Shown: one piece after another, positions 27,123 through 47,957 of the stretch
Layout: each line of letters starts with the position of its first letter
Position numbering within the stretch: position 1 is the stretch's first letter
Source of the DNA: an uncultured Methanosarcinales archaeon
GTDB taxonomy: Archaea > Nanobdellota > Nanobdellia > Woesearchaeales > CAZOXR01
Assembly: GCA_964566535.1 (NCBI GenBank)
Contig: CAZMIO010000003.1
Coordinates: forward strand, 89,153 to 153,152
Reading direction: 5' to 3'
Length of the DNA: 64,000 nucleotides
Notes under the pieces: model-generated
The model's input: the letters and a program-made list of their open reading frames with translations, nothing else
The model's database searches: none
What the model was told of the DNA's origin: nothing
Program-made: the position numbers and the translations under genes

Positions 27123-28223
27123 TTATTTCACCAACGAAACTATCTTCTCTGCACATTCTCCCATCGTAGCTAATGTATCTATCTTATTCTCAGTAAGTAT
27201 CTTCTGACCTTCAGCCTCATTAGTACCAATTAACCTTACAACCATAGGAATCTTAATCTCATTCTTAGATATATAATCAACTAAACCTTGAGCAATATTA
27301 TCACACCTTGTAATCCCGCCAAAAATATTAATAAATATCCCTTTTGGATCCTTCTTCATACAAATTTCCAAACTCTTCTCCATCTTCTCTACAGATGCTC
27401 CACCACCAACATCTAAAAAGTTAGCAGGCTTTCCACCATAATGACCGATTGCATCAAGTGTTGCCATAACCAACCCAGCGCCATTCCCAATTATCGCAAT
27501 ATTTCCATCAAGCTCAACATATGCAACTCCAGCTTTATTAGCTTCCTTCTCTATAGGGGTCAATTCACTCTCTTTCTGAGAAGTAAACTCAGGGTGCCTA
27601 AATAAAGCATTATCATCAATTATAACTTTAGAATCTGCAGCAACTAAACCTTTAGGAGTTATCGCAAGAGGATTAATCTCAACTAGTTCAGCATCACTCT
27701 CAACCATACTCTTAGCTAATTTCTCAACAATCTCAACCAATTCAGTAGCATGTTCAAAACCTTTCAACTTCTCCATCAAACTTCCAGGAGAAAACTCACT
27801 CATTGGCATCTTAATTACTTTGGAAGGAGAGGTCTTTGCAAGCTCCTCAATATCAACTCCTCCTTCAAGAGATACTATCAGTGTCAAGCCCTTCTCAACT
27901 CTGTTAACCACAATAGAAACATAAAGCTCTCCAAGAAAATCTAACTTTTCACATACTAAAATCTGATCAACCTTTTCTCCTTTCAGATCCATACCAAGAA
28001 TTGACTTAGCAACATCCTCAATATCCTCTTTAGTTGCAAACTTAACCCCGCCAGATTTACCTCTACCACCGACCAAAACCTGAGCCTTAATCACATACTC
28101 AGAACTATCTAACTCACTCAACTTACCTTGGATCTCATCAACAGAATTAACTGGAAAACCTTCCTGGATCCTAATTCCGTTCTTCTTGAAAATCGCCTTA
28201 CCTTGATATTCTTTCAGTTTCAT
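27123..28223 (-). CDS. sucC: succinyl-CoA synthetase beta subunit (ATP-grasp)
   Basis: MKLKEYQGKAIFKKNGI is the ATP-grasp N-terminus typical of SucC. It lies immediately upstream of sucD. Confidence 0.85.
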   Translation of the reverse strand: MKLKEYQGKAIFKKNGIRIQEGFPVNSVDEIQGKLSELDSSEYVIKAQVLVGGRGKSGGVKFATKEDIEDVAKSILGMDLKGEKVDQILVCEKLDFLGELYVSIVVNRVEKGLTLIVSLEGGVDIEELAKTSPSKVIKMPMSEFSPGSLMEKLKGFEHATELVEIVEKLAKSMVESDAELVEINPLAITPKGLVAADSKVIIDDNALFRHPEFTSQKESELTPIEKEANKAGVAYVELDGNIAIIGNGAGLVMATLDAIGHYGGKPANFLDVGGGASVEKMEKSLEICMKKDPKGIFINIFGGITRCDNIAQGLVDYISKNEIKIPMVVRLIGTNEAEGQKILTENKIDTLATMGECAEKIVSLVK

Positions 28224-29227
28224 AAAGCATCCCTAAAACTAAACCCATATTTTATTGCCTGTACATTCTTATCCACAAACTTAGGCGGAAGAACATCTTC
28301 AATATTTATAAGCATTATGTTTATCCCCAAATACTTCAGTATTTTCCCCAAAGCAATCATATTAACAAAAACCTTATTCCCGAACTTAGAAACCGCATCT
28401 TCCTTAAATCCAAACTGATCCCTATTTTTACATTGAACAGCACAATCAATACATTTTTTACCACAGATTGTATCGTCAATTATCAATTCCTTAGCTGGAA
28501 ACCACTGTCTTGTCCTTGCAAACTTCAACAACAAATCAGCTTCATCAATTATCGGATTCTCAATCTTATTCTCAGAAAATATCAAATCAGCAGAAATATT
28601 ACCGCTCCTAACTGCAGAGTCATACTCCATATTCAAAGAAACCTCATTACCAAGCTGAGATAATATATGTGCAAGCGAAAATGACAACAGCTTTATCCCC
28701 TGACCAGCTTCTCCAACAATCTTAATCCTCCTTTCTTTCTCCGCATTCTCATAATCTCCAATGTGTTTGATCAGCTTCTGTATCTCTATTCCAAACATAC
28801 TCTTCTTTAGTAAAACACCTTTCTCAAAACCAAACTTAGATATATTCTCAATAAACTTATTCTTTGAGTAAGCATACATTACAATCTTATAACAACCAGT
28901 CTCAATCAACTTCTTCTCCAAATGCTCCATAAGCTTCCTAATGTAACCTTTACCTCTATGTTCCTTACTATTATATACCCAGTAAATTGTAAAAACATTA
29001 AACAGCAACCATCCAAATAAGAACGCAACGACTTCCCCATTCTCTTCAACAACATAAAATGCCGCCTGTTTATCCTTCATTAACTCAGCAAGACCATCAC
29101 CAGTAAAATTAGCTTTCAAAGCCTTACGAATCTTATCAGGCTCTTTATCGTAAGTCTCATCAATAACATTCTCCATCAGCTTACCGACAGCTTCAGCATC
29201 CTTCTTCTCAATCTTCCTAATTTCCAT
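28220..29227 (-). CDS. GNAT acetyltransferase fused to a 2-oxoacid:ferredoxin oxidoreductase gamma subunit
   Basis: The N-terminal about 150 aa have a GNAT fold (FLFGW...HRGKGYIRKLMEH). The C-terminal about 180 aa (KIVGEAGQGIKLLSFSLAHILSQLG...) match the Por/Kor gamma subunit. Confidence 0.6.
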   Translation of the reverse strand: MEIRKIEKKDAEAVGKLMENVIDETYDKEPDKIRKALKANFTGDGLAELMKDKQAAFYVVEENGEVVAFLFGWLLFNVFTIYWVYNSKEHRGKGYIRKLMEHLEKKLIETGCYKIVMYAYSKNKFIENISKFGFEKGVLLKKSMFGIEIQKLIKHIGDYENAEKERRIKIVGEAGQGIKLLSFSLAHILSQLGNEVSLNMEYDSAVRSGNISADLIFSENKIENPIIDEADLLLKFARTRQWFPAKELIIDDTICGKKCIDCAVQCKNRDQFGFKEDAVSKFGNKVFVNMIALGKILKYLGINIMLINIEDVLPPKFVDKNVQAIKYGFSFRDAL

Positions 29228-29957
29228 TTTTCACAATACCTAACTCACCATCCTTTAACAACCCAGTTGGATTTAGATTAATCTTATAATCATCCTTAAC
29301 CTTTTCCAACATTTCATAACCATTCTTAAATCCTAATCTTCTTCCATTATTCTCAATACAATTAGAAATAACATCAATAAAAGCAAAACCATCCCATTCA
29401 ATCGCTTCCTTCATACATTTCTTAAGATGCTCTATCTGATAAACTGAACATCGAGCATAAAAGTGATTCTTATTAGAAGTTATTATCCCTTGGATATTCA
29501 AAGGACTAAATGTATTACCTAACGGACTAGTCAACGTCTTAATCCCCTCAGGTGTAGTCGGAGCCATCTGCCCCCCAGTCATACCATAAATCTCATTATT
29601 AATACAAATAACTGTAATATTCACATCTCTCCTAGAAGTATGTAGTAAATGATTCCCACCAATTCCAGTCAAATCTCCATCACCACTAAAAACAACAACA
29701 TTTAATTTCTCATTCCCCCCCTTAATTCCTTCAGCAAACGAAAGTGCCCTTCCATGAGTTCCATGTACACTATCTATATTGTAATATCCTGCAGCCCTTC
29801 CGCTGCACCCAATACCTGAAACAATAGCCAACTCCTCTTTCTTAAGCCCCATAGACTCAAAAGTAAAAGCTAACTGCTTAAACACAGTCCCAATCGAACA
29901 TCCAGGACACCATGTTGTAGGCATTCTATCCCATTTGATATAATCTTTATAGTTCAT
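29217..29957 (-). CDS. 2-oxoacid:ferredoxin oxidoreductase beta subunit (TPP-binding)
   Basis: WCPGCSIGT, GIGCSGRA and the TPP motif FSGDGD match the Por/Kor beta subunit. Confidence 0.8.
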   Translation of the reverse strand: MNYKDYIKWDRMPTTWCPGCSIGTVFKQLAFTFESMGLKKEELAIVSGIGCSGRAAGYYNIDSVHGTHGRALSFAEGIKGGNEKLNVVVFSGDGDLTGIGGNHLLHTSRRDVNITVICINNEIYGMTGGQMAPTTPEGIKTLTSPLGNTFSPLNIQGIITSNKNHFYARCSVYQIEHLKKCMKEAIEWDGFAFIDVISNCIENNGRRLGFKNGYEMLEKVKDDYKINLNPTGLLKDGELGIVKNGN

Positions 29958-30964
29958 TTTAATTTCTCTTTGATATCTTTAAGCTTAATCTCTCCACCTA
30001 ATACTGCAATACCTTCAACCTCTCTCTTCAACACCTTCTCAACCTCCCCTTTGTACTGACCATCGTTCATCTCAATTACCACAATCCGTTTATACTTCTC
30101 ACATACTTTCTTAAGTTCAGAATCAAGCATAGGAAATATCCTAATAGGCCTAAAGATAGAATATTCTTTCTTAAGCGGCAAGATTACTCTAGACGCAATA
30201 CCAAAAGAAATCAGCAAAGTATCAGAATCCTTATTCTCAAGGTACTCATAAAAATTATACTTCTTAGCAACGTCATTAATCCTCTTCTTATAGTCAGCAT
30301 ACCACTTTCTGTAATAAACAGGATCCTTGGTATGGGGGATTCCGTCCTTAGATAACAAACCAGTAAAATGCCTAGTACCCGAACCAAGCGGTTTCATCTC
30401 CCTAGGCTTAACCTTAATATCAACACCCTCAACATCAACAGTCTCAGACAAATGTCCTAAAAAACCATCTAATAATAAAATCACAGGACTTCTTGATTCT
30501 TCAGCAGCATTAAAAGCCTCAATTGAATACTTATAGCACTCTTCAACAGAGTTCGGATAAAAAACAATTGGATTGTAATCTCCATGACTTCCATACTTAG
30601 TCTGTAAAATATCTCCCTGTGAAGGCAGCGTAGGCATACCGGTACTCGGGCCAACTCTTTGTACATTTACTACTACCAGCGGAACTTCCATCATATGTGC
30701 TAACCCAATTGACTCTTGCTTAAGTGAAATCCCAGGACCAGATGAACTAGTCATAGACTTCCTACCAGCCAAACTTGCACCAATTACAATATTAATCGCA
30801 GCAATCTCATCCTCTGCATGTACAAATCCAATCTCTTCACTTTTCTTCGCAAGAATATGCATAATCTCAGAAGCAGGAGTAATGGGATAAGCTGCAAAAA
30901 AACTCATACCTGCCTTCATTGCTCCAATCGCAACAGCCTCATTACCCATCATTAACTTCTTCAT
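29954..30964 (-). CDS. 2-oxoacid:ferredoxin oxidoreductase alpha subunit
   Basis: MMGNEAVAIGAMKAG..AAYPITPASEI is the typical N-terminus of the Por/Kor alpha subunit. Confidence 0.8.
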   Translation of the reverse strand: MKKLMMGNEAVAIGAMKAGMSFFAAYPITPASEIMHILAKKSEEIGFVHAEDEIAAINIVIGASLAGRKSMTSSSGPGISLKQESIGLAHMMEVPLVVVNVQRVGPSTGMPTLPSQGDILQTKYGSHGDYNPIVFYPNSVEECYKYSIEAFNAAEESRSPVILLLDGFLGHLSETVDVEGVDIKVKPREMKPLGSGTRHFTGLLSKDGIPHTKDPVYYRKWYADYKKRINDVAKKYNFYEYLENKDSDTLLISFGIASRVILPLKKEYSIFRPIRIFPMLDSELKKVCEKYKRIVVIEMNDGQYKGEVEKVLKREVEGIAVLGGEIKLKDIKEKLK

Positions 30965-31173
30965 TTTTTTGGCGCAACCTCAATCGAAAAGTCAGGGCAA
31001 TACTTCATGCAAAGCTGACATTGAATACATTTATTTAAAGAAATCATCTCATCTTCCTTAAACTCAAGATTCTTAACAGGGCAGATATTAATACAGATAA
31101 AGCAGTGCTTACAATAATCTCCGCACCATGTCAATACATTATCCAGTTTCTTCCTTTCTTTCTCTTCAACCAT
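30961..31173 (-). CDS. 2-oxoacid:ferredoxin oxidoreductase delta subunit (2x[4Fe-4S] ferredoxin)
   Basis: It has two CxxCxxCxxxCP motifs (CKHCFICINICP and CIQCQLCMKYCP). Confidence 0.7.
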   Translation of the reverse strand: MVEEKERKKLDNVLTWCGDYCKHCFICINICPVKNLEFKEDEMISLNKCIQCQLCMKYCPDFSIEVAPKK

Positions 31174-32266: not shown

Positions 32267-32575
32267 ATGTTTGAAATACTAAAAGACCTAAAAAAAGCAG
32301 AAGAAGAATCAAAGGATATACTAATTGATGCAAAAGAAAAAGCAGATCTTTCTATAAAGAACGCTAAAGAAAAAGGAAAAGAAAACCTAGCGAAGCTTGC
32401 TGAAAAGTTCAACAAGCAAAAAGAAGAACAATTAGAAACCACAAAAACAGAACTAGAAACAGAAACAAACGACATCGAAGACAAAGGAAAAAAAGACATT
32501 GCAGAGTTAAAAAAGAACTCTACATCAAATAAAACAACAGCAATAGACGAAACAAAAAAAGCAATACTAAAATAA
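32267..32575 (+). CDS. atpH: A-type ATP synthase subunit H
   Basis: It is a small, highly charged helical protein (102 aa) at the head of an atpHIKECFABD-ordered operon. Confidence 0.55.
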   Translation: MFEILKDLKKAEEESKDILIDAKEKADLSIKNAKEKGKENLAKLAEKFNKQKEEQLETTKTELETETNDIEDKGKKDIAELKKNSTSNKTTAIDETKKAILK

Positions 32576-32578: not shown

Positions 32579-34555
32579 ATGTTCAGATCGCACGATATGA
32601 AGAAGGTAGTGATTTTTGCTCTTAATAATCACAGAGACACTATCCTTTCAAAGATACAAAAACTAGGTTTAATGCAGCCTGTTGACCTCAAAAAAAGCGA
32701 AGTCAAAGAGCTAAACAAACCATTAGATAATTCTAACTTAAGGAAAATATCAGATTCCCTCCTAAGAATCTCAAGGTTAGTTAACATATTAAAAATTCCC
32801 CCTAAGAAACCCTCATTTGTCCAATCAATTCTTGGACTAGACTTATTAGATAAAAAACCAGTCCAGCATCAAAATTACACTAAAGTACTACAAGAATCGG
32901 AATCATTTCTAAATAAACACGAAAAAGAATTAATCAATCTAGAAGACGACCACTCAAAACTCCTGGAAAGAGAAGAAGAACTTGGTGGGTTTCATGTAAT
33001 TGTAGAACTATTTGGTCAGCACAACATCCCCTTAGAACTCCTAGCATCAACTGAAAAGATCTCAATCGTAACTGGACGTGTCTCAAATGAACACAAGCAA
33101 AAACTAGAGCAGGAATTAAACGAAAAATTAAACTCAGAAGTCCATATCATCACAAAAGAACAAGATAAGAAAGAATCAATCATAACTGTAGTCTCATTAA
33201 AAGAAAAACTTCCAGACTTAAACTTCTTAATGAAGAAATATAACGTTTCACAATTCACGATTCCAGAATGGGGAATAAAAAAGGACCCTAAGAACTATGT
33301 TGAAACAGAACTCAAGAGTGTTGAGCTAAAAAAGGAAGAGATTATGGGCAAAATAAGCAAATATGCCTCTAACACATTTGAAGGAGCAGTAATCCTAAGA
33401 GAAGAACTAGAAATTCTAAAACACCGTTACGAGACAATACATTCTATGCTCGACTCAGAAAAATTCTTCGTACTTCAAGGATGGATTCTAGCAAACAAAC
33501 TAAAACATTTCGAAACTGAACTAAAGACATCAGTAAACGAAAGTATAATAATCAAAGTAGAAGACCCCAAGAAAGATGACAATCCACCAGTAGAATTATC
33601 AAATAAAAAACACTTCAAGCCATTTGAGATGCTAACTGAACTTTATGCACTACCTAAATATAAAGACCTAGACCCCACTTTCATCGTAGGTCCATTATTC
33701 CTTATTTTCGCAGCATTCATGTTAACAGATGCAGTTTACGGATTTTTCTTAGTTATACTAGGGATATTAATCTTAAAGAAATTCGCAAAATACTCAGAAA
33801 GTATGAAACAAATTGCAGTTATCATCTTAGGCATGGGGCTACTCACTGTAATGTTTGGTATTTTAACGGGTTCCTATTTTGGTGACTTCCCAAAGTACAT
33901 CTGGGGAATGGAACCTAAAGATTTAGCAATATGGAAAGACCCGCTAGAAGATCCATTATATTTCCTAATCATCGCAATTGGAACAGCAGTCATTTACTTA
34001 AACATCGGATTCATCCTAGGAGTTATTGAAGACTTCAGGAAACGAGACTTCAAAACAATGTTTAAGGAAAGATTAGTCTGGTTTATGCTCCAGGCAGGGA
34101 TAGCATTACTAATATTGAAGGCAAATCCAATTTTATTCTCACTCCTTGGCAAAGATATTGGTTTAGCAACATTAATCATCACAATTTCAGTACTATCTAT
34201 AGTGATAACATCAGGACCATTAGGTTTACTATCTATAACAGGACTCATGGGGGACATGATTTCATTTTCACGTCTTTTCGCACTATCATTATCTACAGCA
34301 GGAATTGCCCTAGCAGTCAACTTGCTGGCAAATCTTGTTAAAGACACACCATTTGTGGGAATAATCTTGGCAGCAATCATATTCTTAATTGGACATGCAT
34401 TTGGGTTTGTAATGAATTCAATAGGTAGTTTTGTACATTCACTAAGGTTACAATTCGTAGAATTCTTCGGAAGATTCTATGAAGGTGGTGGAGATAAATT
34501 CACCCCACTAAAGGAAGACCGTTATTATACAGAGGTTAAAGAAGATGACAATTGA
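32579..34555 (+). CDS. atpI: A-type ATP synthase subunit I (stator a-subunit)
   Basis: It is 658 aa, with a soluble N-terminal half and a C-terminal polytopic membrane domain containing the conserved Arg-bearing helix (..SFSRLFALSLS..). Confidence 0.85.
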   Translation: MFRSHDMKKVVIFALNNHRDTILSKIQKLGLMQPVDLKKSEVKELNKPLDNSNLRKISDSLLRISRLVNILKIPPKKPSFVQSILGLDLLDKKPVQHQNYTKVLQESESFLNKHEKELINLEDDHSKLLEREEELGGFHVIVELFGQHNIPLELLASTEKISIVTGRVSNEHKQKLEQELNEKLNSEVHIITKEQDKKESIITVVSLKEKLPDLNFLMKKYNVSQFTIPEWGIKKDPKNYVETELKSVELKKEEIMGKISKYASNTFEGAVILREELEILKHRYETIHSMLDSEKFFVLQGWILANKLKHFETELKTSVNESIIIKVEDPKKDDNPPVELSNKKHFKPFEMLTELYALPKYKDLDPTFIVGPLFLIFAAFMLTDAVYGFFLVILGILILKKFAKYSESMKQIAVIILGMGLLTVMFGILTGSYFGDFPKYIWGMEPKDLAIWKDPLEDPLYFLIIAIGTAVIYLNIGFILGVIEDFRKRDFKTMFKERLVWFMLQAGIALLILKANPILFSLLGKDIGLATLIITISVLSIVITSGPLGLLSITGLMGDMISFSRLFALSLSTAGIALAVNLLANLVKDTPFVGIILAAIIFLIGHAFGFVMNSIGSFVHSLRLQFVEFFGRFYEGGGDKFTPLKEDRYYTEVKEDDN

Positions 34556-37500
34556 GGATGTAGCTAACATCATCACAATTCCAATACAAAAGAATGGAGT
34601 TCCAGCTACTATCCAGGTTATTAACCAAACAGTAGCAGATACAGCATCTACTGCAATAACCAACATCTCAAACACAGCAGCAGATGCAGTAATCACCGTT
34701 TCAAACACAGCAGCAGATGTAGCAGTTAATACAACTAAAGCAGCAACAGTTCTATTAGGAATGGATTTCGGGAACCTAGATGGAAAAGCAGTAGCAATCA
34801 TTGGAGCAGGAATAGCAGTTGCAGCAGCAGGAATTGCATCAGCAATCGGAGCAGGAATTGTTGGTTCTACTGGAGCAAGAGAATCTGCAGAGGATCCAAA
34901 AAGATTTTCACAATCATTACTATTCCAAGCCCTACCTCAAACTCAGGGAATTTATGGTTTTTTAATAGCAATCCTAATCATGTTAGGCGCAGGAGTAATA
35001 GGCCCTGCAAAAGAAATAACTTTATCTCAAGGACTTGGCGCCCTAGGAGCTGGGTTAGCAGTTGGACTTGCAGCAGTATCAGCAATCGGTCAAGGGTTAG
35101 CCGCATCTGCTGGATTAGGAGCAACAGCAAGAGACAAAAAGATGTTCGGAAAATCAATCCTATTCTCAGTACTTCCAGAAACACAAGCACTATACGGATT
35201 CCTTGTAGCTATCCTTATATTAGTAGGATTCGGACTTTTCGGAACTGCACCAGTAGACATACCAATCGCAGCTGGTTGGGCAGCAGTTGGAGCAGGTCTT
35301 GCAATAGGTCTTGCAGGTATCAGTGCAATCGGTCAGGGAATCGCTGCAGCAGGAAGCATTGGGGCAGTCTTAGAAAAAAGCAAGGCATTTGGTAAATCAG
35401 TTATATTCGCAGTACTCCCAGAAACACAAGCCCTATACGGATTCATAATCGCAATCTTAATCCTCATTGGATTCGGAATCCTAGGAACAGCAACTACAGC
35501 ACTTTCATTTGGAGCAGCACTATTCACAATTGCAGCAGGATTAAGTGTTGGTCTTGCAGCAGTATCGGCAATCGGTCAGGGAATCGCAGCATCTTCAGGG
35601 GTAAATGCAGTAGCCTCAAATGACAAATCATTCGGAAAATCAATCCTATTCTCAGTACTCCCAGAAACACAAGCACTATACGGCTTTTTAATTGCCATCC
35701 TTCTTCTAGTTGGAGCAGGAATAATTGGAGCTGCAAAAGCAGGCATAACTACCCCAATAGGAGTCATTGCAATCGGTGCAGGACTTGCAGCAGGTATTGC
35801 AGGTATCAGTGCAATCGGTCAGGGAATCGCAGCCAGCGCAGGAATTAATGCAGTAAGTCAAAAACCAAAATCATTCGGAAAAGCTATTCTTTTCAGTGTC
35901 CTCCCAGAAACACAAGCACTATACGGCTTCCTAATAGCTATCCTCTTATTAGTTGGAGGGGGAATATTAGGAACAGCAAAGCTTGGAATTGAAATTCACG
36001 TTGGATTAATAGCAATCGGAGCAGGCCTTGCAACAGGTCTTGCAGCAATCTCAGCAGTAGGTCAGGGAATCGCAGCCTCATCAGGAATAGCAACAGTAGC
36101 TAAAGACGAAAAATCATTCGGAAAATCAATCCTATTCAGCGTCTTACCAGAAACACAAGCACTATACGGCTTCCTAATAGCAATCTTATTAATGGTAGGC
36201 GGAGGATTACTAGGTGCAATCAAATCAGGATTAAATATATCAACAGGACTTATTGCAATCGGTGCAGGCTTAGCAACTGGTCTTGCAGCAGTATCAGCAA
36301 TCGGTCAGGGAATCGCAGCCTCATCAGGCATTAACACAGTTTCAAAAAATCCAAAATCATTCGGAAAATCAATCCTATTCTCAGTACTTCCAGAAACACA
36401 AGCCCTATACGGCTTCCTAATAGCAATCCTACTAATGGTAGGCGGAGGAATAGTTGGAGCAACAACAACTGGATTATCATCCGGAATTGGATTAATCGCA
36501 GTTGGATGTGGTATAGCAGTTGGATTTGCAGCAGTCTCAGCAGTAGGTCAGGGAATCGCAGCCAGCGCAGGAATCAATGCAGTAAACGAAAACCCAAAAT
36601 CATTCGGAAAATCAATCCTATTCTCAGTCTTACCAGAAACACAAGCACTATACGGCTTCCTAATAGCAATCCTACTAATGGTAGGCGGAGGATTAGTTGG
36701 AATAGTCAAACAAGGAATAGACCTCCCTATAGGATTAGTGGCAATCGGAGCTGCCATTGCAACAGGAATTGCAGGTATCAGCGCAGTAGGTCAGGGAATG
36801 GCAGCATCATCTGGAATAGCAACAGTAGCTAAAGACGAAAAATCATTCGGAAAATCAATCCTATTCTCAGTCTTACCAGAAACACAAGCACTATACGGCT
36901 TCCTAATAGCAATCCTACTAATGGTAGGGGGAGGATTATTGGGTGTAATCAAAGAAGGCATAAGCATAGCTATTGGTTTTGTGGCAATCGGTGCAGGACT
37001 TGCAGCAGGTTTAGCAGCAGTCTCAGCAGTTGGTCAAGGAATCGCGGCCTCATCCGGTATTAATACAGTTTCAAGAAATCCAAAATCATTCGGAAAATCA
37101 ATCCTATTCAGCGTCTTACCAGAAACACAAGCACTATACGGCTTCCTAATCGCTGTACTTCTACTTGTAGGCGGAGGAATAATCGGAGTAATAAATCCTA
37201 ATATCAACTTACCAGTTGGATTAATAGCAATCGGTGCAGGACTTGCAACAGGTTTAGCAGCAGTCTCAGCAGTAGGTCAGGGAATGGCAGCAGCTGCAGG
37301 AGCAGAAGCAGCATCTGAAGATCCAAAATCATTCGGAAAATCAATCCTATTCAGCGTCTTACCAGAAACACAAGCACTATACGGCTTCCTAATAGCAATC
37401 CTACTAGTAGCTTCAGGAGGAATACTGGGAGCAGCAAAACCAGGCCTTACAGTACCGATTGGACTTGTAGCAGTTGGTGCAGGAGTATCTATCGGAGTTG

Positions 37501-37916
37501 CATGTTTGTCTGCTCTTGGTCAAGGAATCGCAGCATCCTCCGGTATCGGATCTATACTTGAAAGAAAGAATATTTTTGGAAAGTCAGTATTGTTCTCAGT
37601 ACTTCCAGAAACACAAGCTCTTTACGGAATTATCATATCCATACTTCTTTTGACAGGAGTTGGACTTTTAGGTACAATAAAATCAGGGATAACAATTACA
37701 CAAGGTATTGGTGGAATTGGAATTGGAATAGCAATGGGTCTAGCCGCAGTTAGTGCAGTAGGTCAAGGAATTGTGTCTGCATCTTCAATAGGTGCTGCAG
37801 TAAGAGACCAAAAATCAACTGGAAAAAGCCTAGTATTAAGTGTTATTCCAGAAACATACGCAATATTTGGATTATTAATATCAATACTATTATTGATAGG
37901 ATTAAAATTTATATGA
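34545..37916 (+). CDS. atpK: A-type ATP synthase proteolipid (c subunit), 13 fused hairpins in one 1123-aa polypeptide
   Basis: Thirteen tandem units of about 81 aa have the form GAGLA.GLAA.SA.GQG.A...KSFGKSILFSVLPETQALYGFLIAILL. Twelve carry the E of P-E-T-Q, and the first has P-Q-T-Q. The start is uncertain, either M at 34545 or MDFGNLD at 34758. Confidence 0.85.
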   Translation: MTIEDVANIITIPIQKNGVPATIQVINQTVADTASTAITNISNTAADAVITVSNTAADVAVNTTKAATVLLGMDFGNLDGKAVAIIGAGIAVAAAGIASAIGAGIVGSTGARESAEDPKRFSQSLLFQALPQTQGIYGFLIAILIMLGAGVIGPAKEITLSQGLGALGAGLAVGLAAVSAIGQGLAASAGLGATARDKKMFGKSILFSVLPETQALYGFLVAILILVGFGLFGTAPVDIPIAAGWAAVGAGLAIGLAGISAIGQGIAAAGSIGAVLEKSKAFGKSVIFAVLPETQALYGFIIAILILIGFGILGTATTALSFGAALFTIAAGLSVGLAAVSAIGQGIAASSGVNAVASNDKSFGKSILFSVLPETQALYGFLIAILLLVGAGIIGAAKAGITTPIGVIAIGAGLAAGIAGISAIGQGIAASAGINAVSQKPKSFGKAILFSVLPETQALYGFLIAILLLVGGGILGTAKLGIEIHVGLIAIGAGLATGLAAISAVGQGIAASSGIATVAKDEKSFGKSILFSVLPETQALYGFLIAILLMVGGGLLGAIKSGLNISTGLIAIGAGLATGLAAVSAIGQGIAASSGINTVSKNPKSFGKSILFSVLPETQALYGFLIAILLMVGGGIVGATTTGLSSGIGLIAVGCGIAVGFAAVSAVGQGIAASAGINAVNENPKSFGKSILFSVLPETQALYGFLIAILLMVGGGLVGIVKQGIDLPIGLVAIGAAIATGIAGISAVGQGMAASSGIATVAKDEKSFGKSILFSVLPETQALYGFLIAILLMVGGGLLGVIKEGISIAIGFVAIGAGLAAGLAAVSAVGQGIAASSGINTVSRNPKSFGKSILFSVLPETQALYGFLIAVLLLVGGGIIGVINPNINLPVGLIAIGAGLATGLAAVSAVGQGMAAAAGAEAASEDPKSFGKSILFSVLPETQALYGFLIAILLVASGGILGAAKPGLTVPIGLVAVGAGVSIGVACLSALGQGIAASSGIGSILERKNIFGKSVLFSVLPETQALYGIIISILLLTGVGLLGTIKSGITITQGIGGIGIGIAMGLAAVSAVGQGIVSASSIGAAVRDQKSTGKSLVLSVIPETYAIFGLLISILLLIGLKFI
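34830..37900 (+). repeat. intragenic tandem repeat with a period of about 243 nt and about 13 copies, encoding the c-subunit hairpins
   Basis: The string ccagaaacacaag recurs near 35175, 35418, 35661, 35904, 36148, 36390, 36634, 36877, 37120, 37360 and 37605. The central copies are nearly identical over more than 100 nt. Confidence 0.9.
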
Positions 37917-37919: not shown

Positions 37920-38489
37920 ATGGTGATACAAATGAACGGTGCGCAAAATATAAAAAACAAAATTTTGGAAGAAGCAAAGATAGAAGCTGATAAAATATTA
38001 GCAGAAGCTAAACTAGAAGAAGATAAGATAGCTAGCAACAACAAAAAGGAAGAAGAAAACTACACAAAAAAAAGAGAAGACGAAATAGAAAAAGCAGTAA
38101 AACTCTTCAAAGACAAAACATTAGCTCAAGCTAGATTAAAGGCAAAAAGAGATTACTTAGATGAACGTGAAACAATTATAGAAAAATACATCAAAGAAGG
38201 CATAAAATCAATAAGCAGTTCATCAAAGGACTACCAGGAATATATGAAAAAAATCCTGACAAAAAACATAAAACTCCTTTCAGGAGAGATAACAGTTTTC
38301 TGCAACAAAAGTGACCAACCACTGGTAAAAAAGATTGTAGGGGATGAAGCAAAAGTAGAAACCGCTAGAATTACTGGTGGAGTTACTATGGAAGACTCAA
38401 CCGGAGTTAAAATTGACGAGTCAATTGAATCAAAGGTAGAAAGAGTTAAGGATACGTTAAGACAAAAAATAGTAAAGTCAATCGAGTAA
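37920..38489 (+). CDS. atpE: A-type ATP synthase subunit E
   Basis: It is 189 aa, with a charged helical N-terminus (ILEEAKIEADKILAEAK), and sits at the operon position after K. Confidence 0.7.
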   Translation: MVIQMNGAQNIKNKILEEAKIEADKILAEAKLEEDKIASNNKKEEENYTKKREDEIEKAVKLFKDKTLAQARLKAKRDYLDERETIIEKYIKEGIKSISSSSKDYQEYMKKILTKNIKLLSGEITVFCNKSDQPLVKKIVGDEAKVETARITGGVTMEDSTGVKIDESIESKVERVKDTLRQKIVKSIE

Positions 38490-38493
38490 AAAA

Positions 38494-39537
38494 ATGGATG
38501 TAACAATACCTTTAGTAATAGGAGCAGCAACTTTAGCAGGAGTTGTAGTAATAGCTCCAGTTACAAAGTACGCATTGGATATCTATCCTTTCCTGTATGC
38601 CAACACAAGGTGTTCTTCTAGACTAAGTTTTTTACTGACTAAGAAGTCATACGAAGAATTATTGGCATCAACAAGTAAAGATGAGGCTTTTGCTTTGCTA
38701 GAGGATTCCTATTATAGTAAGATTGTTGAACATTCAAAAGATTTTTTTTCATTTTCAGAATCATTAGAAGATGACGCTTACAATACTTATAACTGGCTTT
38801 CAACAATTGTACCTCCAGTTATAGCTCCAATAATCAATTCCCTAAATATGAAGTTCGAGATTAGTGAAATAAAAAAGATATTAAATGCATTAAAGGAAAA
38901 CAAGGATGTCGAAGAAATAAAGTTCATAAGTGACCCTGAGTTGAAATTAAAACTAGAGTCAGCAAAAGACTTCCAGTCATTAACAGTAGCATTAGAGGGG
39001 ACCCATTACAATGTAGTATTTCAGAATAAATCATTAGACCAATTAAGTGAACTCAATACTCAACTTGACAAATATTATCTTGGGAACCTTATTAGTACAA
39101 TCAATGTTGTTACAGACAAAAAGGCAGCAGAACCATTCTTGGAATATGCAAGGGTTCTTATTGACATGTTTAACATTAGAGCGTTGATAAGAGGGATAGG
39201 CGCAAACAAAAACACCGAGCTTATAGAATCTGGAAATCTAAACAAGGAAGAACTCACCGGGGTAACTGATATTGCTCAATTAGGATCAACACTAACTAAC
39301 AGCATATATGGGGAGTTCATTGGAGATATCAACAATTTGAATATTGAAAATGGATTCTATAAATTCTTTTTGAAACAAGCAGGTAACGTAGTAGCAAAAT
39401 ACACAATTAAGTCAGGTTCAGTTGTAAGGTTCATAATCATGAAAGAAATAGAAACAAGAAACTTAAATTCATTAATAAAACTAAAATCAGAAGGCTTCCA
39501 ACAGGAAAAAATAAGGCCTTTGTTGATGGTGGAATAA
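38494..39537 (+). CDS. atpC: A-type ATP synthase subunit C
   Basis: It is 347 aa and helical, in the operon position between E and F. Confidence 0.7.
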   Translation: MDVTIPLVIGAATLAGVVVIAPVTKYALDIYPFLYANTRCSSRLSFLLTKKSYEELLASTSKDEAFALLEDSYYSKIVEHSKDFFSFSESLEDDAYNTYNWLSTIVPPVIAPIINSLNMKFEISEIKKILNALKENKDVEEIKFISDPELKLKLESAKDFQSLTVALEGTHYNVVFQNKSLDQLSELNTQLDKYYLGNLISTINVVTDKKAAEPFLEYARVLIDMFNIRALIRGIGANKNTELIESGNLNKEELTGVTDIAQLGSTLTNSIYGEFIGDINNLNIENGFYKFFLKQAGNVVAKYTIKSGSVVRFIIMKEIETRNLNSLIKLKSEGFQQEKIRPLLMVE

Positions 39538-39538
39538 G

Positions 39539-39838
39539 ATGGACATAGCAATAATAGCAGATAAAGACACAATAATTGGATTCAAATTAGCAGGAGTAAG
39601 AAACTCAGCAGTATTCAACGAAAAAACAATAAAAGAAGACATAATAAAATTCAAAGAGTCTCATATTTTAATCTTGACAGAAAATATTGCAAAGACTGTA
39701 AGGGAAAACAAATTAGAAAAACTAATTGAAGGAGTGATTGTTGAAGTTCCTGATAAAAATGGATCAACAGGACTTGCAACAAACGAAATATCAAGATTAT
39801 TTGAAGAGGCAATAGGTGTAAAACTTAAAGAAAATTAA
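39539..39838 (+). CDS. atpF: A-type ATP synthase subunit F
   Basis: It is 99 aa, starting [20 protein letters not shown], which is typical of A/V-type F subunits. Confidence 0.7.
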
Positions 39839-39854
39839 CCTCGGAGGGATTATA

Positions 39855-41639
39855 ATGGAATCAAAAACAGAATCAAACGGAAAAATCATCAAAATTGCAG
39901 GACCAGTTGTAGTTGCATCTGGTATGGCTGGAGTTAAGATGTATGAGGTCGTAAGAGTGGGAAAAGAAAGACTTATTGGAGAAGTCATTGAGCTCTTAGA
40001 AGACAAAGCAACAATCCAGGTTTATGAAGAAACATCTGGAATTGCACCAGGAGCAGAAGTTGTAGCAACAGGATCATCACTATCAGTTGAATTAGGTCCA
40101 GGAGTCATCGGAAATATCTATGACGGAATCATGAGGCCTTTAAACATCATCCAGGAAAAGTCTGGAGAATTCATTGCTAGAGGAATTGAAGCTGACTCAA
40201 TTGACCACAAAAAGAAATGGCCCTTTAAGCCACTAGCAAAAAAAGGCGACAAAGTAACTGGTGGACAGATCATAGGAGAAGTTACAGAAACATCAATGGT
40301 CGTACAAAGAATAATGGTCCCTTCAGATGTTGAGGGGGAACTTACCGAGATAGTTGGTGAAGGATCTTATACCGTAAAATCAACAATAGCAAAAGTAAAA
40401 ACAAAAGATGGAGAAACAGAAATTAATCTGATGCAAAAATGGCCAGTTAGGATTCCAAGACCTAACAAAGACAAACAAGAACCATCAATCCCATTAATAA
40501 CTGGACAAAGAATATTAGATACATTTAATCCATTAGCAAAAGGGGGAACAGCAGCTATCCCAGGTGGATTCGGAACTGGTAAGACTGTAACTCAGCAATC
40601 ATTGGCTAAATGGTGTGATGCAGATATCATAGTCTACATTGGATGTGGAGAACGAGGAAATGAGATGACAGATGTTCTAAAAACATTCCCTCATCTAACA
40701 GATCCAAGATCAGGTAAACCATTATTAGAAAGAACAGTTATCATCGCAAATACATCAAACATGCCAGTGGCAGCAAGAGAAGCATCAGTCTATACTGGAA
40801 TTACAATTGCTGAATATTTCAGAGACATGGGCTATGATGTAGCATTGATGGCTGACTCAACCTCAAGATGGGCAGAAGCAATGAGAGAAATTTCATCTAG
40901 ACTGGAAGAGATGCCAGGGGAAGAAGGTTATCCCGCTTATTTAGCTACAAGACTTTCTCAATTCTATGAAAGAGCAGGCCGTGTCAAAACCTTAAGCGGG
41001 AAAGAAGGCTCAGTTTCAGTTATTGGAGCTATCAGTCCTCCAGGTGGAGACTTCTCAGAACCAGTTACTCAAAATACGCTAAGAGTTAACAAAACATTCT
41101 GGGCATTAGACAAGAGCTTAGCATCCAGAAGACATTTCCCGGCAATTAATTGGTTAAACTCTTATTCATTATACTTAGAAAGCGTAACAGCTTGGTTTAA
41201 TGAACATTCAGGGGAATCATGGAGAGACTTAAGGAACAAAGCAATGGAACTTCTACAAAAAGAAGAACAATTGCAAGAAATTGTTCAATTGGTTGGTCCT
41301 GATGCTTTACCAGACACCGAAAGGTTGATCTTGGAAGTTACCAAAATCTTAAGAGAAGACTTCCTTCAGCAAAACGCTTATCACGATGTGGATGCTTTCT
41401 GTCCAATCAGAAAACAGACTTTAATGTTGAAATTAATACTAGAGTTCTATGATATGGCACAGGCTGCATTAAAAGAAGGAGCTCCAATTGACTCAATTGC
41501 AGGAATGAAGATAAAAGATTCACTTGCAAGGATGAAAGAACATAGCAACGACACATTTGAACAACATTACGAGGAGTTGAAGAAAAACATGACAACAGAG
41601 TTTAGCCAGATTAAATCTGGGGGTGATTCAAATGAGTAG
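39855..41639 (+). CDS. atpA: A-type ATP synthase catalytic subunit A
   Basis: It has the P-loop [10 protein letters not shown], is 594 aa, and contains the non-homologous insert typical of A/V-type A subunits. Confidence 0.95.
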
Positions 41640-43008
41640 TATAATAGAATATTCAAGCATAAAAGAAATCGCAGGACCGTTGATGATAGTTGAAAAGGTA
41701 AAAAACGTTGCTTACGGTGAATTAGTTGAAATAAAGATAGGAAAAGAAAAAAGAACCGGACAAGTTCTTGAAGCAAGAGACGACATAGCAGTTGTTCAGG
41801 TGTTCGAAGGAACTAGGGGCCTTGCAACAAAAGGAGTAACAGCAAGATTCACTGGGGAAACAATGAAGGTTGGCTTAAGCAAAGATGTTATTGGTAGAAT
41901 CTTTAACGGAATTGGAAAGCCAATTGACAAGGGTCCTGAAATCATAGCAGAAAAGAGAATGGATGTTAATGGACTAGCAATAAATCCAACTGCAAGAGAA
42001 TTCCCAGAGGAATTCATTCAAACAGGAATTTCCACAATTGATGTGATGAACACATTAGTGAGAGGTCAAAAACTTCCATTATTCTCAGAAGCGGGACTTC
42101 CTCATAATGAGATTGCAGCTCAGATTGCAAGACAGGCAGCTGTTAAGGGAAAAGATAATTTTGCGGTAATATTTGCAGCAATGGGAATCACTTTCGAAGA
42201 AGCAAAATTCTTCATGAATGACTTCGAAAGAACAGGAGCAATTGAAAACATGGTGGCTTTCATCAACCTAGCTGACGACCCAGCAATTGAAAGGATCATT
42301 ACACCAAGAATCGCCTTAACAACTGCTGAATACCTAGCTTACGAAAAAGACATGCATATCTTAGTTATTTTAACTGATATGACAAACTATTGCGAAGCTT
42401 TAAGGGAAATTGCAGCAGCTAGAAACGAGATTCCTGGAAGACGTGGATATCCTGGATACATGTATACTGACCTAGCAATGAACTACGAAAGAGCTGGAAA
42501 GATACACGGCAAAAAAGGATCTGTAACTCAGATTCCTATATTGACAATGCCGCAAGGGGACATTTCTCACCCAATTCCAGACCTAACTGGCTACATTACA
42601 GAAGGACAGATTGTAGTTTCAAAAGAACTACACAGAAAAGGAATCTATCCACCGATAAATCCATTACCATCTTTATCTAGATTGATGAACGAAGGTATAG
42701 GGGAAGGAAAAACAAGAGAAGACCATTCTGGAGTTTCTAACCAGCTTTATGCTGGCTATGCAGAAGGAAACGACTTAAGAGACTTAGTAGCAGTTGTTGG
42801 AGAAGAAGCACTGTCTGATAAGGATAAAAAGTTCTTAAAGTTCGCAGAAGGCTTTGAAGACAAGTTCATAAGACAAGGTAGAGATGAAAATAGGGACATT
42901 GATTTATCCTTACAAGTTGGATGGGATTTATTCAAGTCATTACCTGTCGAAGAATTAAAGAAACTAGACTTAAAGCACATTGAAAAGTTTTTGAAGAAAC
43001 AAGCATAA
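41623..43008 (+). CDS. atpB: A-type ATP synthase subunit B
   Basis: It is 461 aa and homologous to A/V-type B subunits (..[18 protein letters not shown]..). It overlaps the atpA 3' end. Confidence 0.95.
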
Positions 43009-43012
43009 GAAC

Positions 43013-43642
43013 ATGGCGTCTCAAATAAAAGCAGCAACACGAATGGAATTGTTAAGGCTGAAGAAAAAAGTAGCTTTAGCTGGAAAAGGACATAAATTGC
43101 TGAAAGAAAAGAGAGATGCCCTAGTTTCTGAATTCTTCAAATTAATCGACAGCCTAAAAGCAATAAGAAAAGAAATGGAAGACAAGATTTCAGTTGCATT
43201 CAACTCTTTAATCATGGCACAAGCAATTTCTGGTGTTGGAGAAATTGAACGTGCAGCAGACTCCACAAAAGAAGTGGGAGAAATAGAATTCAAACCCAAT
43301 AACATAATGGGAGTTAAAGTTCCTATTTTTAATTTTAAGAAGGCTGAAACAACAATAGCAGATAAAGGATATTCTTTGTTCTCAACATCTTTAGAGTTAG
43401 ACACTGCATCAAAGAACTTCGAAGAAGTTCTAAATATAATCGTAAAGCTAGCAGAAGCAGAAGCAACAGTAAGAAGACTAGCAGAAGAAATAAAGAAAAC
43501 CAAAAGAAAAGTAAACGCTTTAGAAAGAATCTTAATCCCAAGACTAAATGACGATATTGTATATATTAAGATGCGTTTAGAAGAGATGGAAAGAGAAAAC
43601 TTCTCAAGATTAAAGGTAATTAAGAAGCGTATTTCAGAATGA
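43013..43642 (+). CDS. atpD: A-type ATP synthase subunit D (central stalk)
   Basis: It is a 209-aa coiled-coil protein starting MASQIKAATRMELLRLKKKVALAGKGHKLLKEKRDAL. Confidence 0.85.
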   Translation: MASQIKAATRMELLRLKKKVALAGKGHKLLKEKRDALVSEFFKLIDSLKAIRKEMEDKISVAFNSLIMAQAISGVGEIERAADSTKEVGEIEFKPNNIMGVKVPIFNFKKAETTIADKGYSLFSTSLELDTASKNFEEVLNIIVKLAEAEATVRRLAEEIKKTKRKVNALERILIPRLNDDIVYIKMRLEEMERENFSRLKVIKKRISE

Positions 43643-45097: not shown

Positions 45098-45517
45098 ATG
45101 AAAGTCTCAGACATTATGACTAAAATAATAAAAACTTCTTCACATGCAACAATCAGTGAAGCAGCTAAACTTATGGACTCAAAGAACATTGGTTCATTAC
45201 TAGTGGAAGAAGATTCAAGAATAACAGGAATAATAACAGAAAGAGACATCCTAAAAAAAATAGTAGCCAAGGACAAAGACCCAAGAACCACATCCATAAA
45301 AGAAGTCATGAGAGCTCCAATCATAACAATCAGCTCAGATCAAAGCATAGAAGAAGCAAATGATATAATGATTAAAAATCAAATAAGAAGACTCCCAGTT
45401 GAAAGTGCAGGAACAATAACTGGTATGATAACATCAAGAGACGTCTCTAAAAACTTAAAATTCCTGTTAGGAAGAAAACTAACCAGCTACAACAGGACAG
45501 AGTATAAAAAAGATTAA
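45098..45517 (+). CDS. CBS-domain pair protein
   Basis: It has two CBS motifs (...SLLVEEDSRITGIITERDIL... and ...RLPVESAGTITGMITSRDV...). Confidence 0.7.
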   Translation: MKVSDIMTKIIKTSSHATISEAAKLMDSKNIGSLLVEEDSRITGIITERDILKKIVAKDKDPRTTSIKEVMRAPIITISSDQSIEEANDIMIKNQIRRLPVESAGTITGMITSRDVSKNLKFLLGRKLTSYNRTEYKKD

Positions 45518-47956: not shown

Positions 47957-47957
47957 T

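What the first reader, a model, noticed from the sequence alone, without database searches (positions are those of the whole stretch)
34911..34950. The first hairpin lacks the ion-binding carboxylate (P-Q-T-Q instead of P-E-T-Q), giving 12 sites per 13 hairpins
Hairpins 2-13 all carry LPETQALYG. Hairpin 1 reads LPQTQGIYG, with codon caa at about 34938-34940. If real, the rotor has 12 ion sites on a 13-hairpin ring (predicted 4 ions per ATP), the partial site-loss strategy known from V-type and duplicated archaeal proteolipids. The Q(GQG)...E-T-Q..Y constellation also resembles Na+-binding signatures of A/V-type c subunits.
Basis: partly seen in the sequence, partly recalled or inferred. Interest (0 to 1): 0.7.

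Follow-up and report, generated by a model that had tools for sequence, protein, structure and literature searches.

The report
Single-chain ATP synthase rotor, one dead site
An uncultured DPANN archaeon builds the whole membrane rotor of its ATP synthase as one protein of 13 linked helical hairpins, and the ion site at the seam between the last and first hairpin is deliberately disabled, so the ring should carry 12 ions per turn (4 per ATP).

Summary
Window 34545..37916 (+) encodes a 1123-aa A/V-type c/K subunit with 13 hairpins, inside a complete H-I-K-E-C-F-A-B-D operon. Hairpin 1 reads LPQTQGIYG, with Gln132 = CAA at 34938-34940. The other 12 hairpins have GAA (Glu) at that position. The gene is 100% identical in three other metagenome assemblies. 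Four relatives encode the same Gln as CAG.

One detail is wrong: hairpin 13 reads IPETYAIFG, not LPETQALYG. That difference matters. Aligned to E. hirae NtpK, each site combines Glu and the inner-helix Gln of hairpin j with the carbonyl, Thr, Gln and Tyr of hairpin j-1. Four changes (E→Q132, Q→A103, Q→Y1105, Y→F1108) all fall on the hairpin 13/hairpin 1 seam. The other 12 interfaces keep every NtpK Na+ ligand.

Across 65 fused rotors, 85 of 86 carboxylate-less hairpins are cyclically preceded by a hairpin that lost Q or Y. The same design occurs with 2, 3, 4, 6, 12 and 13 hairpins. Relatives carry 12, 11, 10 or 9 carboxylates on 13 hairpins.

This is a new variant of known kinds: the Methanopyrus 13/13 rotor, V-type site loss, and the A. 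woodii ring with 10 sites on 11 hairpins. Na+ coupling, ring closure and 4 ions per ATP are inferred, not shown.

The parts
32267..32575 (+). Putative atpH: small, charged coiled-coil protein in the usual first position of the operon.
   Evidence: ORF. No Pfam hit. Assigned by position only.
32579..34555 (+). atpI, the stator a/I subunit. Both stator arginines are present (SFSRLFALSL and HSLRLQFVEFF).
   Evidence: PF01496. The C-terminal half best matches E. hirae Na+ V-ATPase subunit I (8wci_P, E = 4e-19), with both Arg aligned.
34545..37916 (+). atpK: a 1123-aa single-chain rotor of 13 hairpins (26 TM helices). Its start overlaps the atpI stop by 11 nt.
   Evidence: 13 PF00137 stretches. AF2 pLDDT 79.9, pTM 0.80. 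Foldseek top hit is NtpK 2bl2_A, TM 0.88, rmsd 1.2 A.
34545..34763 (+). N-terminal tail (aa 1-73). It is polar and S/T/N-rich with three N-x-S/T sequons, and is predicted disordered. It is probably extracellular.
   Evidence: pLDDT below 50 for residues 1-76. Sequon density is 41 per 1000 aa, against 1 per 1000 aa in the rest. Relatives have tails of 0-90 aa.
34764..35006 (+). Hairpin 1 (aa 74-154), the carboxylate-less hairpin. It resembles the NtpK first hairpin.
34851..34853 (+). Ala103 (GCA) in GAG. This is the inner-helix position that is Gln (GQG) in hairpins 2-13 and Gln110 in NtpK.
34938..34940 (+). Gln132 (CAA) at the carboxylate position. This is the codon named in the finding.
   Evidence: Identical in L001-L003. 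Encoded as CAG in L004-L007.
34941..34955 (+). Thr133, Gln134 and Tyr137 of hairpin 1. They are retained and are predicted to complete the site of Glu212 in hairpin 2.
   Evidence: Invariant in 14 aligned 13-hairpin proteins. They align to NtpK T64, Q65 and Y68.
35004..37676 (+). Hairpins 2-12, each with GQG and LPETQALYG. The Glu codons (all GAA) start at 35178, 35421, 35664, 35907, 36150, 36393, 36636, 36879, 37122, 37365 and 37608.
   Evidence: TRF reports a 243-nt period.
36596..36928 (+). Span bounded by the longest exact intragenic repeat (90 nt: 36596-36685 = 36839-36928). The 12-hairpin variant L008 has its deletion junction here.
37677..37913 (+). Hairpin 13 (aa 1045-1123): GQG and IPETYAIFG. 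It keeps its own Glu1103 but has lost the Gln and Tyr it would offer to the next site.
37857..37868 (+). Tyr1105 (TAC, replacing Gln) and Phe1108 (TTT, replacing Tyr). This is hairpin 13's half of the dead seam and matches NtpK E-T-Y141...L144.
37920..43642 (+). Rest of the operon: atpE 37920..38489, atpC 38494..39537, atpF 39539..39838, atpA 39855..41639, atpB 41623..43008, atpD 43013..43642.
   Evidence: Pfam families PF01991, PF01992, PF01990, PF00006 with PF22919 (twice, for A and B) and PF01813.

Best explanation
atpK encodes the entire membrane rotor of an A-type ATP synthase of an uncultured DPANN (Woesearchaeota/Nanoarchaeota) archaeon. It is one polypeptide of 13 covalently linked hairpins.

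As in E. hirae NtpK, each ion site lies between neighbouring outer helices. Hairpin j supplies the Glu and the inner-helix Gln. The outer helix of hairpin j-1 supplies a backbone carbonyl, Thr, Gln and Tyr. Twelve interfaces (Glu212 to Glu1103) are complete and carry the full Na+-type ligand set.

The thirteenth interface is the non-covalent seam where C-terminal hairpin 13 meets N-terminal hairpin 1. It has been dismantled on both sides: E→Q132 and Q→A103 in hairpin 1, and Q→Y1105 and Y→F1108 in hairpin 13. Hairpin 1 still keeps Thr133, Gln134 and Tyr137, because these serve Glu212 of hairpin 2.

One turn should therefore move 12 ions for 3 ATP, or 4 per ATP. That is eleven single steps and one double step, in which the uncharged seam passes the stator arginines without ion exchange.

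Shown here: the sequence facts, their conservation, the homology of positions to NtpK, and the cyclic co-variation. Inferred: closure of the monomer into a ring, the number of functional sites, Na+ as the ion, and the ion/ATP ratio.
For: - Sequence: searches give the site table. Four of the six site positions are changed at the seam, and none is changed at the other 12 interfaces.
- Positional homology to NtpK: E = 2.4e-20; numbering. [quoted passage not shown]
- Structure: a two-hairpin unit of the AF2 model superposes on NtpK at 1.2 A with TM 0.88.
- Cyclic neighbour test on 65 complete fused rotors: 85 of 86 hairpins without a carboxylate are preceded, cyclically, by a hairpin that lost Q(+2) or Y(+5). 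Only 21 of 508 Glu hairpins are. On distinct architectures the counts are 38/1 against 15/219 (Fisher p = 5e-33, though the sequences are related).
- Direction control: preceding hairpin 38/39, following hairpin 2/39, same hairpin 1/39. The rule also holds from the last hairpin to the first, which argues that they are neighbours.
- Conservation: hairpin 1 is A|Q..QY and the last hairpin is E-T-Y..F in all close relatives. T133, Q134 and Y137 are invariant. The Gln codon is CAA here and CAG in four relatives.
- Replication: identical DNA in three other assemblies.
- Working enzyme context: complete operon and both stator Arg present.
- Precedents that a ring tolerates a dead site: V-type c subunits, and the A. 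woodii ring with 10 sites on 11 hairpins (PMC9171764; PMC3604715).
Against: - No experimental data exist for this protein or any close relative.
- Ring closure by the monomer rests on the cyclic co-variation, on pTM 0.80, and on analogy to Methanopyrus. I could not read model coordinates to measure hairpin 13/hairpin 1 contacts.
- The hairpin count could be 12 in part of the population or in reality (L008).
- A complete Na+ ligand set predicts Na+ binding but does not prove the physiological ion.
- In an engineered F-type single-chain c10, one E56Q in the first hairpin abolished ATP synthesis (PMC8809890). Tolerance of a dead site is therefore not automatic. It is assumed here from V/A-type precedent.
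- The co-variation counts come from related sequences, so the p-value overstates independence.
Confidence: 0.8

Rival explanations
1. The architecture is the same (12 live sites and one dead seam), but the coupling ion is H+, or H+ and Na+ promiscuously, rather than Na+.
For: Sequence motifs only predict binding capacity. No Na+-specific partner (a Na+ pump or antiporter) was seen among the window genes I scanned. I did not search for one systematically. From general knowledge, some archaeal enzymes with the motif use both ions.
Against: All five NtpK Na+ ligands plus Tyr are present at all 12 sites. This meets the Gln/Glu/Thr Na+ motif given in PMC7793690. M. kandleri hairpins with the same set are classed as Na+-binding in PMC2359735. 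The best solved matches for both K and I come from the Na+ V-ATPase of E. hirae.
Confidence: 0.35
2. The true gene has 12 hairpins (11 sites), and the 13-hairpin form is an assembly artefact. The converse is also possible: the 12-hairpin contig is the artefact.
For: L008 (sample 3300035100) is the same gene minus one 243-nt unit. The junction lies in a 90-nt exact repeat, and there are two nearby SNPs. Central units are 73-85% identical. Several relatives have 12 hairpins.
Against: The 13-unit version was assembled identically in the window and in three other samples. The longest exact repeat (90 nt) is shorter than usual read lengths. Collapse, not expansion, is the usual assembler error. Many relatives on long contigs have 13 hairpins. 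Either way, hairpin 1 and the dead seam are unaffected.
Confidence: 0.1
3. Hairpin 1 is not a ring member. It might sit inside the ring or act as an anchor, so the ring would be 12 hairpins with 12 sites.
For: Hairpin 1 is the most divergent unit, at 25-42% protein identity to the others. It follows a long N-terminal tail. From general knowledge, eukaryotic c'' has an extra helix inside the ring.
Against: Hairpin 1 keeps the Gly-rich inner helix and the invariant L-P-x-T-Q-x-x-Y-G. These residues make sense only if they complete the site of Glu212. If hairpin 13 were the neighbour of hairpin 2, that site would lack Gln and Tyr. Hairpins 1 and 2 together superpose and align on the NtpK four-helix unit. 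The same first hairpin occurs in 2-, 3-, 4- and 6-hairpin subunits, which must all be in the ring.
Confidence: 0.05
4. Two copies form a 26-hairpin ring with 24 sites, giving 8 ions per ATP.
For: V-type rings can be large. By my calculation, ten four-helix NtpK subunits make 20 hairpins.
Against: Related lineages have 6-hairpin subunits and their tandem 12-hairpin fusions. This points to rings of 12-13 hairpins. The 13-hairpin M. kandleri protein is interpreted as a monomeric ring (PMC3639240; PMC2359735). No known ring is as large as 26 hairpins.
Confidence: 0.04
5. CAA is a sequencing or assembly error for GAA, and all 13 sites are live as in Methanopyrus.
For: The two codons differ by a single base.
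Against: The DNA is identical in four assemblies. Gln is present in every DPANN relative, with the CAG codon in four of them. Three further coordinated substitutions fall at the same interface.
Confidence: 0.01

Closest known systems
Methanopyrus kandleri AtpK, the monomeric 13-hairpin rotor (Lolkema & Boekema 2003, cited in PMC2359735 and PMC3639240)
   Same: It is a homologue: P0024 is 1021 aa, 50% identical, E = 1.5e-273. It is also one polypeptide of 13 hairpins and 26 TM helices with the same GQG / P-E-T-Q-x-x-Y motifs, encoded in an A-type operon.
   Different: All 13 Methanopyrus hairpins keep the carboxylate and the full ligand set (PMC2359735). It has no dead seam, no hairpin 1 Gln, no E-T-Y last hairpin and no N-terminal tail. 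It has Q→R in hairpins 6, 9 and 12 instead.
E. hirae NtpK, a V-type Na+ proteolipid with two hairpins and one site (PDB 2BL2)
   Same: It is the best solved match by sequence (E = 2.4e-20) and by fold (TM 0.88, 1.2 A, 36% identity). Its first hairpin has no carboxylate but keeps T-Q-x-x-Y. Its last hairpin has E-T-Y. The site is built from two hairpins. Hairpin 1 and hairpin 13 of the window protein resemble its first and second hairpins respectively.
   Different: NtpK has 4 helices and one site per two hairpins, and the ring needs many copies. The window protein looks like an NtpK with 11 complete hairpins inserted between the two halves. It has G63 where the window protein has Q132.
Acetobacterium woodii F/V-hybrid rotor (nine single-hairpin c subunits plus one V-type c1)
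   Same: It is a ring with exactly one site missing: 11 hairpins and 10 Na+ sites (PMC9171764; PMC3604715). It is a working ATP synthase.
   Different: It is F-type, heteromeric and assembled from three gene products. I recall that Gln replaces Glu in c1, but I could not verify this because the primary paper is not held.
Multi-hairpin archaeal c subunits with partial site loss (duplicated, or triplicated as in Methanocaldococcus)
   Same: The principle is the same. In the representatives fetched here, 3- and 4-hairpin proteins follow exactly the window pattern: a Gln first hairpin, complete middle hairpins and an E-T-F last hairpin (for example P0104 and P0096).
   Different: They have 2-4 hairpins per chain, so one in 2-4 sites is lost and several chains make a ring. 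I did not examine the M. jannaschii sequence itself. The statement of 3 hairpins with 2 carboxylates for that species is from memory of Ruppert et al. 1999.
Engineered single-chain c10 of Bacillus PS3 FoF1 (Mitome et al.; PMC8809890)
   Same: It is a whole rotor as one polypeptide, with site mutations placed in defined hairpins.
   Different: It is artificial and F-type. A single E56Q in its first hairpin abolished ATP synthesis. The natural A-type ring carries that very change as a conserved feature, together with three compensating changes.

Membership tests
A/V-type ATPase proteolipid (subunit c/K, PF00137) | Helical-hairpin domain matching PF00137 | tested here: met
   13 stretches, E = 2.5e-221, 716.7 bits against a cut-off of 24.
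A/V-type ATPase proteolipid (subunit c/K, PF00137) | Encoded in an A/V-type ATPase operon next to subunit I/a | tested here: met
   Gene order H-I-K-E-C-F-A-B-D, with Pfam support for I, E, C, F, A, B and D.
A/V-type ATPase proteolipid (subunit c/K, PF00137) | Conserved carboxylate in the outer helix | tested here: met
   Glu in 12 of 13 hairpins, aligned to NtpK E139.
Monomeric 13-hairpin rotor of the Methanopyrus type | One ORF with 13 tandem hairpins, homologous to M. kandleri AtpK | tested here: met
   13 hairpins. P0024 is 50% identical with 89% coverage.
Monomeric 13-hairpin rotor of the Methanopyrus type | Every hairpin keeps the complete ion-binding set (13 sites) | tested here: not met
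   Hairpin 1 has Q132 and A103. Hairpin 13 has Y1105 and F1108. Methanopyrus proteins have Glu in 13 of 13 hairpins.
Monomeric 13-hairpin rotor of the Methanopyrus type | The polypeptide closes into a ring by itself | tested here: inconclusive
   Supported indirectly by the last-to-first co-variation and by pTM 0.80.
V-type (NtpK-like) proteolipid with partial site loss | First hairpin without a carboxylate that still donates T, Q and Y to the next hairpin's site; last hairpin E-T-Y/F | tested here: met
   Alignment, scores, site table.
V-type (NtpK-like) proteolipid with partial site loss | Four transmembrane helices and one site per two hairpins | tested here: not met
   26 helices and 12 carboxylates per 13 hairpins.
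Na+-binding c subunits | Gln in helix 1, carboxylate in helix 2 and Ser/Thr after it (motif as given in PMC7793690), plus the extra NtpK ligands Gln65 and Leu61 C=O | tested here: met
   Present at 12 of 13 interfaces.
Na+-binding c subunits | Na+-dependent activity, Na+ transport, or Na+ protection from DCCD | not testable with these tools
   Needs biochemistry.
F/V hybrid rotor (A. woodii type) | F-type enzyme with a heteromeric ring of single-hairpin and V-type c subunits | tested here: not met
   The operon is A-type with a single K gene. The only resemblance is having one site fewer than hairpins.

The most novel reading that the evidence does not exclude
DPANN archaea carry a family of single-chain rotor rings in which the ion-to-ATP ratio is hard-wired in the gene. 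It is tuned in unit steps on a ring of constant size: 12, 11, 10 or 9 live sites on 13 hairpins, or 4.0 to 3.0 ions per ATP. The tuning works by paired substitutions that kill one inter-hairpin interface at a time. The window protein is the 12-site, integer 4.0 member. That would be a natural gearbox acting by site deletion rather than by ring size. It would also provide a defined single-polypeptide rotor for structural and single-molecule work.
Probability: 0.45. Interest if true: 0.75.

Novelty: new variant of a known kind. Interest (0 to 1): 0.58.

Why it matters
The number of ions per ATP is a basic parameter of bioenergetics. It is usually thought to be set by how many c subunits assemble into the ring.

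Here the whole ring is one gene product, so the stoichiometry can be read from the sequence. The gene shows a different way of setting the ratio: keep 13 hairpins and silence chosen interfaces. The window enzyme would have an integer 4 ions per ATP. Its relatives would have 3.67, 3.33 and 3.0.

It also poses a clear mechanistic question. An engineered single-chain F-type ring is killed by one E→Q in its first hairpin (PMC8809890). Nature conserves exactly that change in an A-type ring, together with three partner substitutions. How the dead seam passes the stator can now be tested on a defined molecule.

In the literature I could search, the only 13-hairpin rotor described is that of Methanopyrus, with all 13 sites intact. 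No solved structure of any single-chain rotor appeared in the PDB search.

Tried and rejected
- **Sequencing error at CAA.** Rejected.
- **Repeat collapse affecting hairpin 1.** Rejected, because hairpin 1 DNA is only 44-54% identical to the other units.
- **My first regex parser.** It missed V-type 'V-E-T-Y' hairpins and gave a few false hairpins. I replaced it with an HMM built from the 13 window hairpins.
- **blastn of L008 against the window.** It returned nothing for technical reasons. I replaced it with a direct register comparison.
- **The A. woodii primary paper (PMC4228694).** It is not held, so the Gln-for-Glu detail in c1 stays unverified. The figure of 10 sites on 11 hairpins was taken.
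- **Literature searches for DPANN, metagenomic or single-polypeptide fused rotors.** They found nothing relevant beyond Methanopyrus and the engineered c10. This library lacks most subscription journals, so absence is weak evidence.
- **Foldseek of the full model against the PDB.** It found only two-hairpin matches and no single-chain ring.
- **Measuring ring closure.** I could not do this, because model coordinates are not exposed.
- **Other readings considered and rated low.** These were hairpin 1 lying outside the ring and a dimeric 26-hairpin ring (see rivals).
- **First attempt to translate the atpI C-terminus.** It was out of frame and was corrected.
Full report
**What is there.**
Window 34545..37916 (+) is one ORF of 1123 aa. 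Pfam finds 13 ATP-synt_C hairpins in it (PF00137, E = 2.5e-221). TRF sees the 243-nt period.

The ORF lies in a complete archaeal A-type ATPase operon. The order is H (32267), I (32579), K, E (37920), C (38494), F (39539), A (39855), B (41623) and D (43013). The stator subunit I keeps both functional arginines. Its best solved match is subunit I of the E. hirae Na+ V-ATPase.

The same protein occurs in public data. A cluster member is labelled Candidatus Woesearchaeota, and the relatives are Nanoarchaeota/Nanobdellota MAGs. The host is therefore an uncultured DPANN archaeon.

**Checking the observation.**
Hairpins 2-12 read LPETQALYG, and all 12 Glu codons are GAA.

Hairpin 13 reads IPETYAIFG. 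It has GAG, with Ala103.

Several results exclude error.
- Hairpin 1 DNA is only 44-54% identical to the other units.
- The gene is base-for-base identical in three other metagenome assemblies.
- All close relatives have Gln there.
- Four genome relatives encode it as CAG, with other synonymous differences around it.

The unit count is less secure. One assembly (L008) lacks exactly one 243-nt unit, with the junction in a 90-nt exact repeat. Four assemblies, the window among them, agree on 13.

**Is the Gln at the ion-site position?**
Yes. Hairpins 1+2 align over the full length of E. hirae NtpK (E = 2.4e-20). Hairpin 1 LPQTQGIYG aligns with NtpK LPGTQGLYG, so Q132 matches G63. Hairpin 2 aligns with the hairpin that carries E139.

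I checked the NtpK numbering (L61, T64, Q65, Y68, Q110, E139). The literature names Glu139, Gln110, Thr64, Gln65 and the Leu61 carbonyl as the Na+ ligands. It stresses that two hairpins together supply them (PMC2359735).

An AlphaFold model (pLDDT 79.9, pTM 0.80, 26 TM helices) has a two-hairpin unit that superposes on NtpK at 1.2 A, with TM 0.88.

**What it is: a dead seam, not just a dead residue.**
I transferred the NtpK geometry to the window protein. Site j uses Glu and the inner Gln of hairpin j, and the carbonyl, Thr, Gln and Tyr of hairpin j-1.

On that scheme 12 interfaces are complete. One interface has four of six positions changed: Q132 and A103 in hairpin 1, and Y1105 and F1108 in hairpin 13. 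That interface joins the C-terminal hairpin to the N-terminal hairpin.

Hairpin 1 keeps T133, Q134 and Y137, which are invariant in 14 aligned proteins. This makes sense only if they complete the site of Glu212.

Hairpin 1 resembles the NtpK first hairpin (score 141 against 103). Hairpin 13 resembles the second (93 against 77). The middle hairpins are neutral. Most two-hairpin V-type proteins in the 1.84-billion-protein library align best to residues 80-230, which is hairpins 1+2. The protein therefore looks like a V-type two-hairpin subunit with 11 complete hairpins in between.

**Family evidence.**
I analysed 65 complete fused rotors. In them, 85 of 86 hairpins without a carboxylate are cyclically preceded by a hairpin that lost Q(+2) or Y(+5). 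Only 21 of 508 Glu hairpins are.

The association is directional. It holds for the preceding hairpin in 38 of 39 cases, for the following hairpin in 2 of 39, and for the same hairpin in 1 of 39. The sequences are related, so the Fisher p of 5e-33 overstates independence. The rule also holds across the chain ends, which is sequence-level evidence that the ends are neighbours.

The same design is a Gln first hairpin, complete middle hairpins and an E-T-Y/F last hairpin. It occurs with 2, 3, 4, 6, 12 and 13 hairpins.

Among 13-hairpin proteins I found 12, 11, 10 and 9 carboxylates. Each extra loss is an adjacent pair: E-T-Q..M followed by P-Q-T-Q. Methanopyrus proteins keep 13 of 13, as published.

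**Mechanism.**
The following is inferred, not shown. The monomer closes into a 13-hairpin ring. Twelve Na+-type sites load and unload at subunit I. The uncharged seam passes the stator arginines without exchange. One turn gives 12 ions for 3 ATP, or 4.0 per ATP.

There are precedents for rings with silent positions. V-type c subunits are one. The A. woodii ring, with 10 sites on 11 hairpins, is another.

There is also a caution. In an engineered single-chain F-type c10, one E56Q in the first hairpin abolished ATP synthesis. Tolerance of a dead site probably depends on the A/V-type stator and on the three accompanying substitutions.

The ion identity is predicted only from the complete ligand set.

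**Comparison and novelty.**
It is a member of the A/V proteolipid family and a homologue of the Methanopyrus monomeric rotor. It fails that rotor's defining property of 13 complete sites. It works like an NtpK-type subunit at its seam, but it is not a four-helix protein.

I found no paper describing DPANN fused rotors or a rotor with 12 sites on 13 hairpins. The library is incomplete. No single-chain rotor structure appeared in the PDB search.

I rate it a new variant of a known kind. It is of moderate to good interest, mainly because the family offers a natural series of gear ratios on a defined single polypeptide.

**Limits.**
- Raw reads could not be inspected.
- There is no biochemistry.
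- The detail that Gln replaces Glu in A. woodii c1, and the M. jannaschii figure of 3 hairpins with 2 carboxylates, are from memory only.

Noticed in passing
Window 36596-36928; L008 (JGI sample 3300035100): A 12-hairpin version of the same gene exists. It lacks exactly one 243-nt unit, has its junction inside a 90-nt exact repeat, and carries two SNPs at 36186 and 36189. This is either real recombinational variation in hairpin number or assembler collapse.
   Followed up: partly
Window 34545-34763 (AtpK aa 1-73): The polar N-terminal tail is predicted disordered. It has three N-x-S/T sequons (41 per 1000 aa, against 1 per 1000 aa in the rest). Relatives have equally sequon-rich tails of 0-90 aa. 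It is probably an extracellular, glycosylated appendage at the mouth of the ring.
   Followed up: partly
Relatives P0005-P0016 and P0022/P0026/P0034 (DPANN MAGs): Many relatives have additional internal dead sites. Each is an adjacent pair: a hairpin with P-E-T-Q-A-L-M followed by a hairpin with P-Q-T-Q. This gives 11, 10 or 9 carboxylates on 13 hairpins, and 10 or 9 on 12.
   Followed up: partly
P0043-P0070, P0090 (Thermoplasmata/Thermoplasmatota); P0021, P0023, P0035: These c subunits have an N-terminal signal-like segment, an extracellular PKD domain and 6 hairpins (5 carboxylates). Tandem fusions of two such 6-hairpin blocks also occur (12 hairpins, 10 carboxylates). A folded extracellular domain on a rotor ring is unusual.
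   Followed up: partly
P0071-P0075 and P0079-P0085 (Promethearchaeota/Thorarchaeota); P0076-P0078, P0086 and P0087 (Gracilibacteria, Vampirococcus): Single-chain rotors also occur elsewhere. Asgard archaea have 15-hairpin and 8-hairpin forms, and CPR bacteria have 12- and 10-hairpin F-type forms (Pfam stretch counts). All hairpins seem to keep the carboxylate, in contrast to the DPANN family.
   Followed up: partly
P0024, P0031, P0033 (Methanopyrus AtpK): Hairpins 6, 9 and 12 have Arg in place of the Gln two residues after the Glu (P-E-T-R). This is a period-three pattern in the second half of the ring and is unexplained.
   Followed up: no
Window 16944-19936 and 23750-24880: Genes for the bacterial-type MEP isoprenoid pathway lie on this archaeal contig: DXS, IspG/GcpE and DXR.
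   Followed up: no
Window 26271-31173 (-) and 45514-49892 (-): There is a TCA-type gene set: succinyl-CoA synthetase, a four-subunit 2-oxoacid:ferredoxin oxidoreductase whose gamma subunit carries a fused GNAT acetyltransferase domain (28220-29227), citrate synthase, isocitrate dehydrogenase and aconitase. This is richer metabolism than usually expected of DPANN archaea.
   Followed up: no
Cluster of P0001 (NCBI MDP7179905.1 / MDP7457536.1): In NCBI MAGs the same gene appears only as a 237-aa fragment annotated 'V-type ATP synthase subunit K'. Several relatives are called 'hypothetical protein'. Fused rotors are probably under-recognised in MAG annotation.
   Followed up: no
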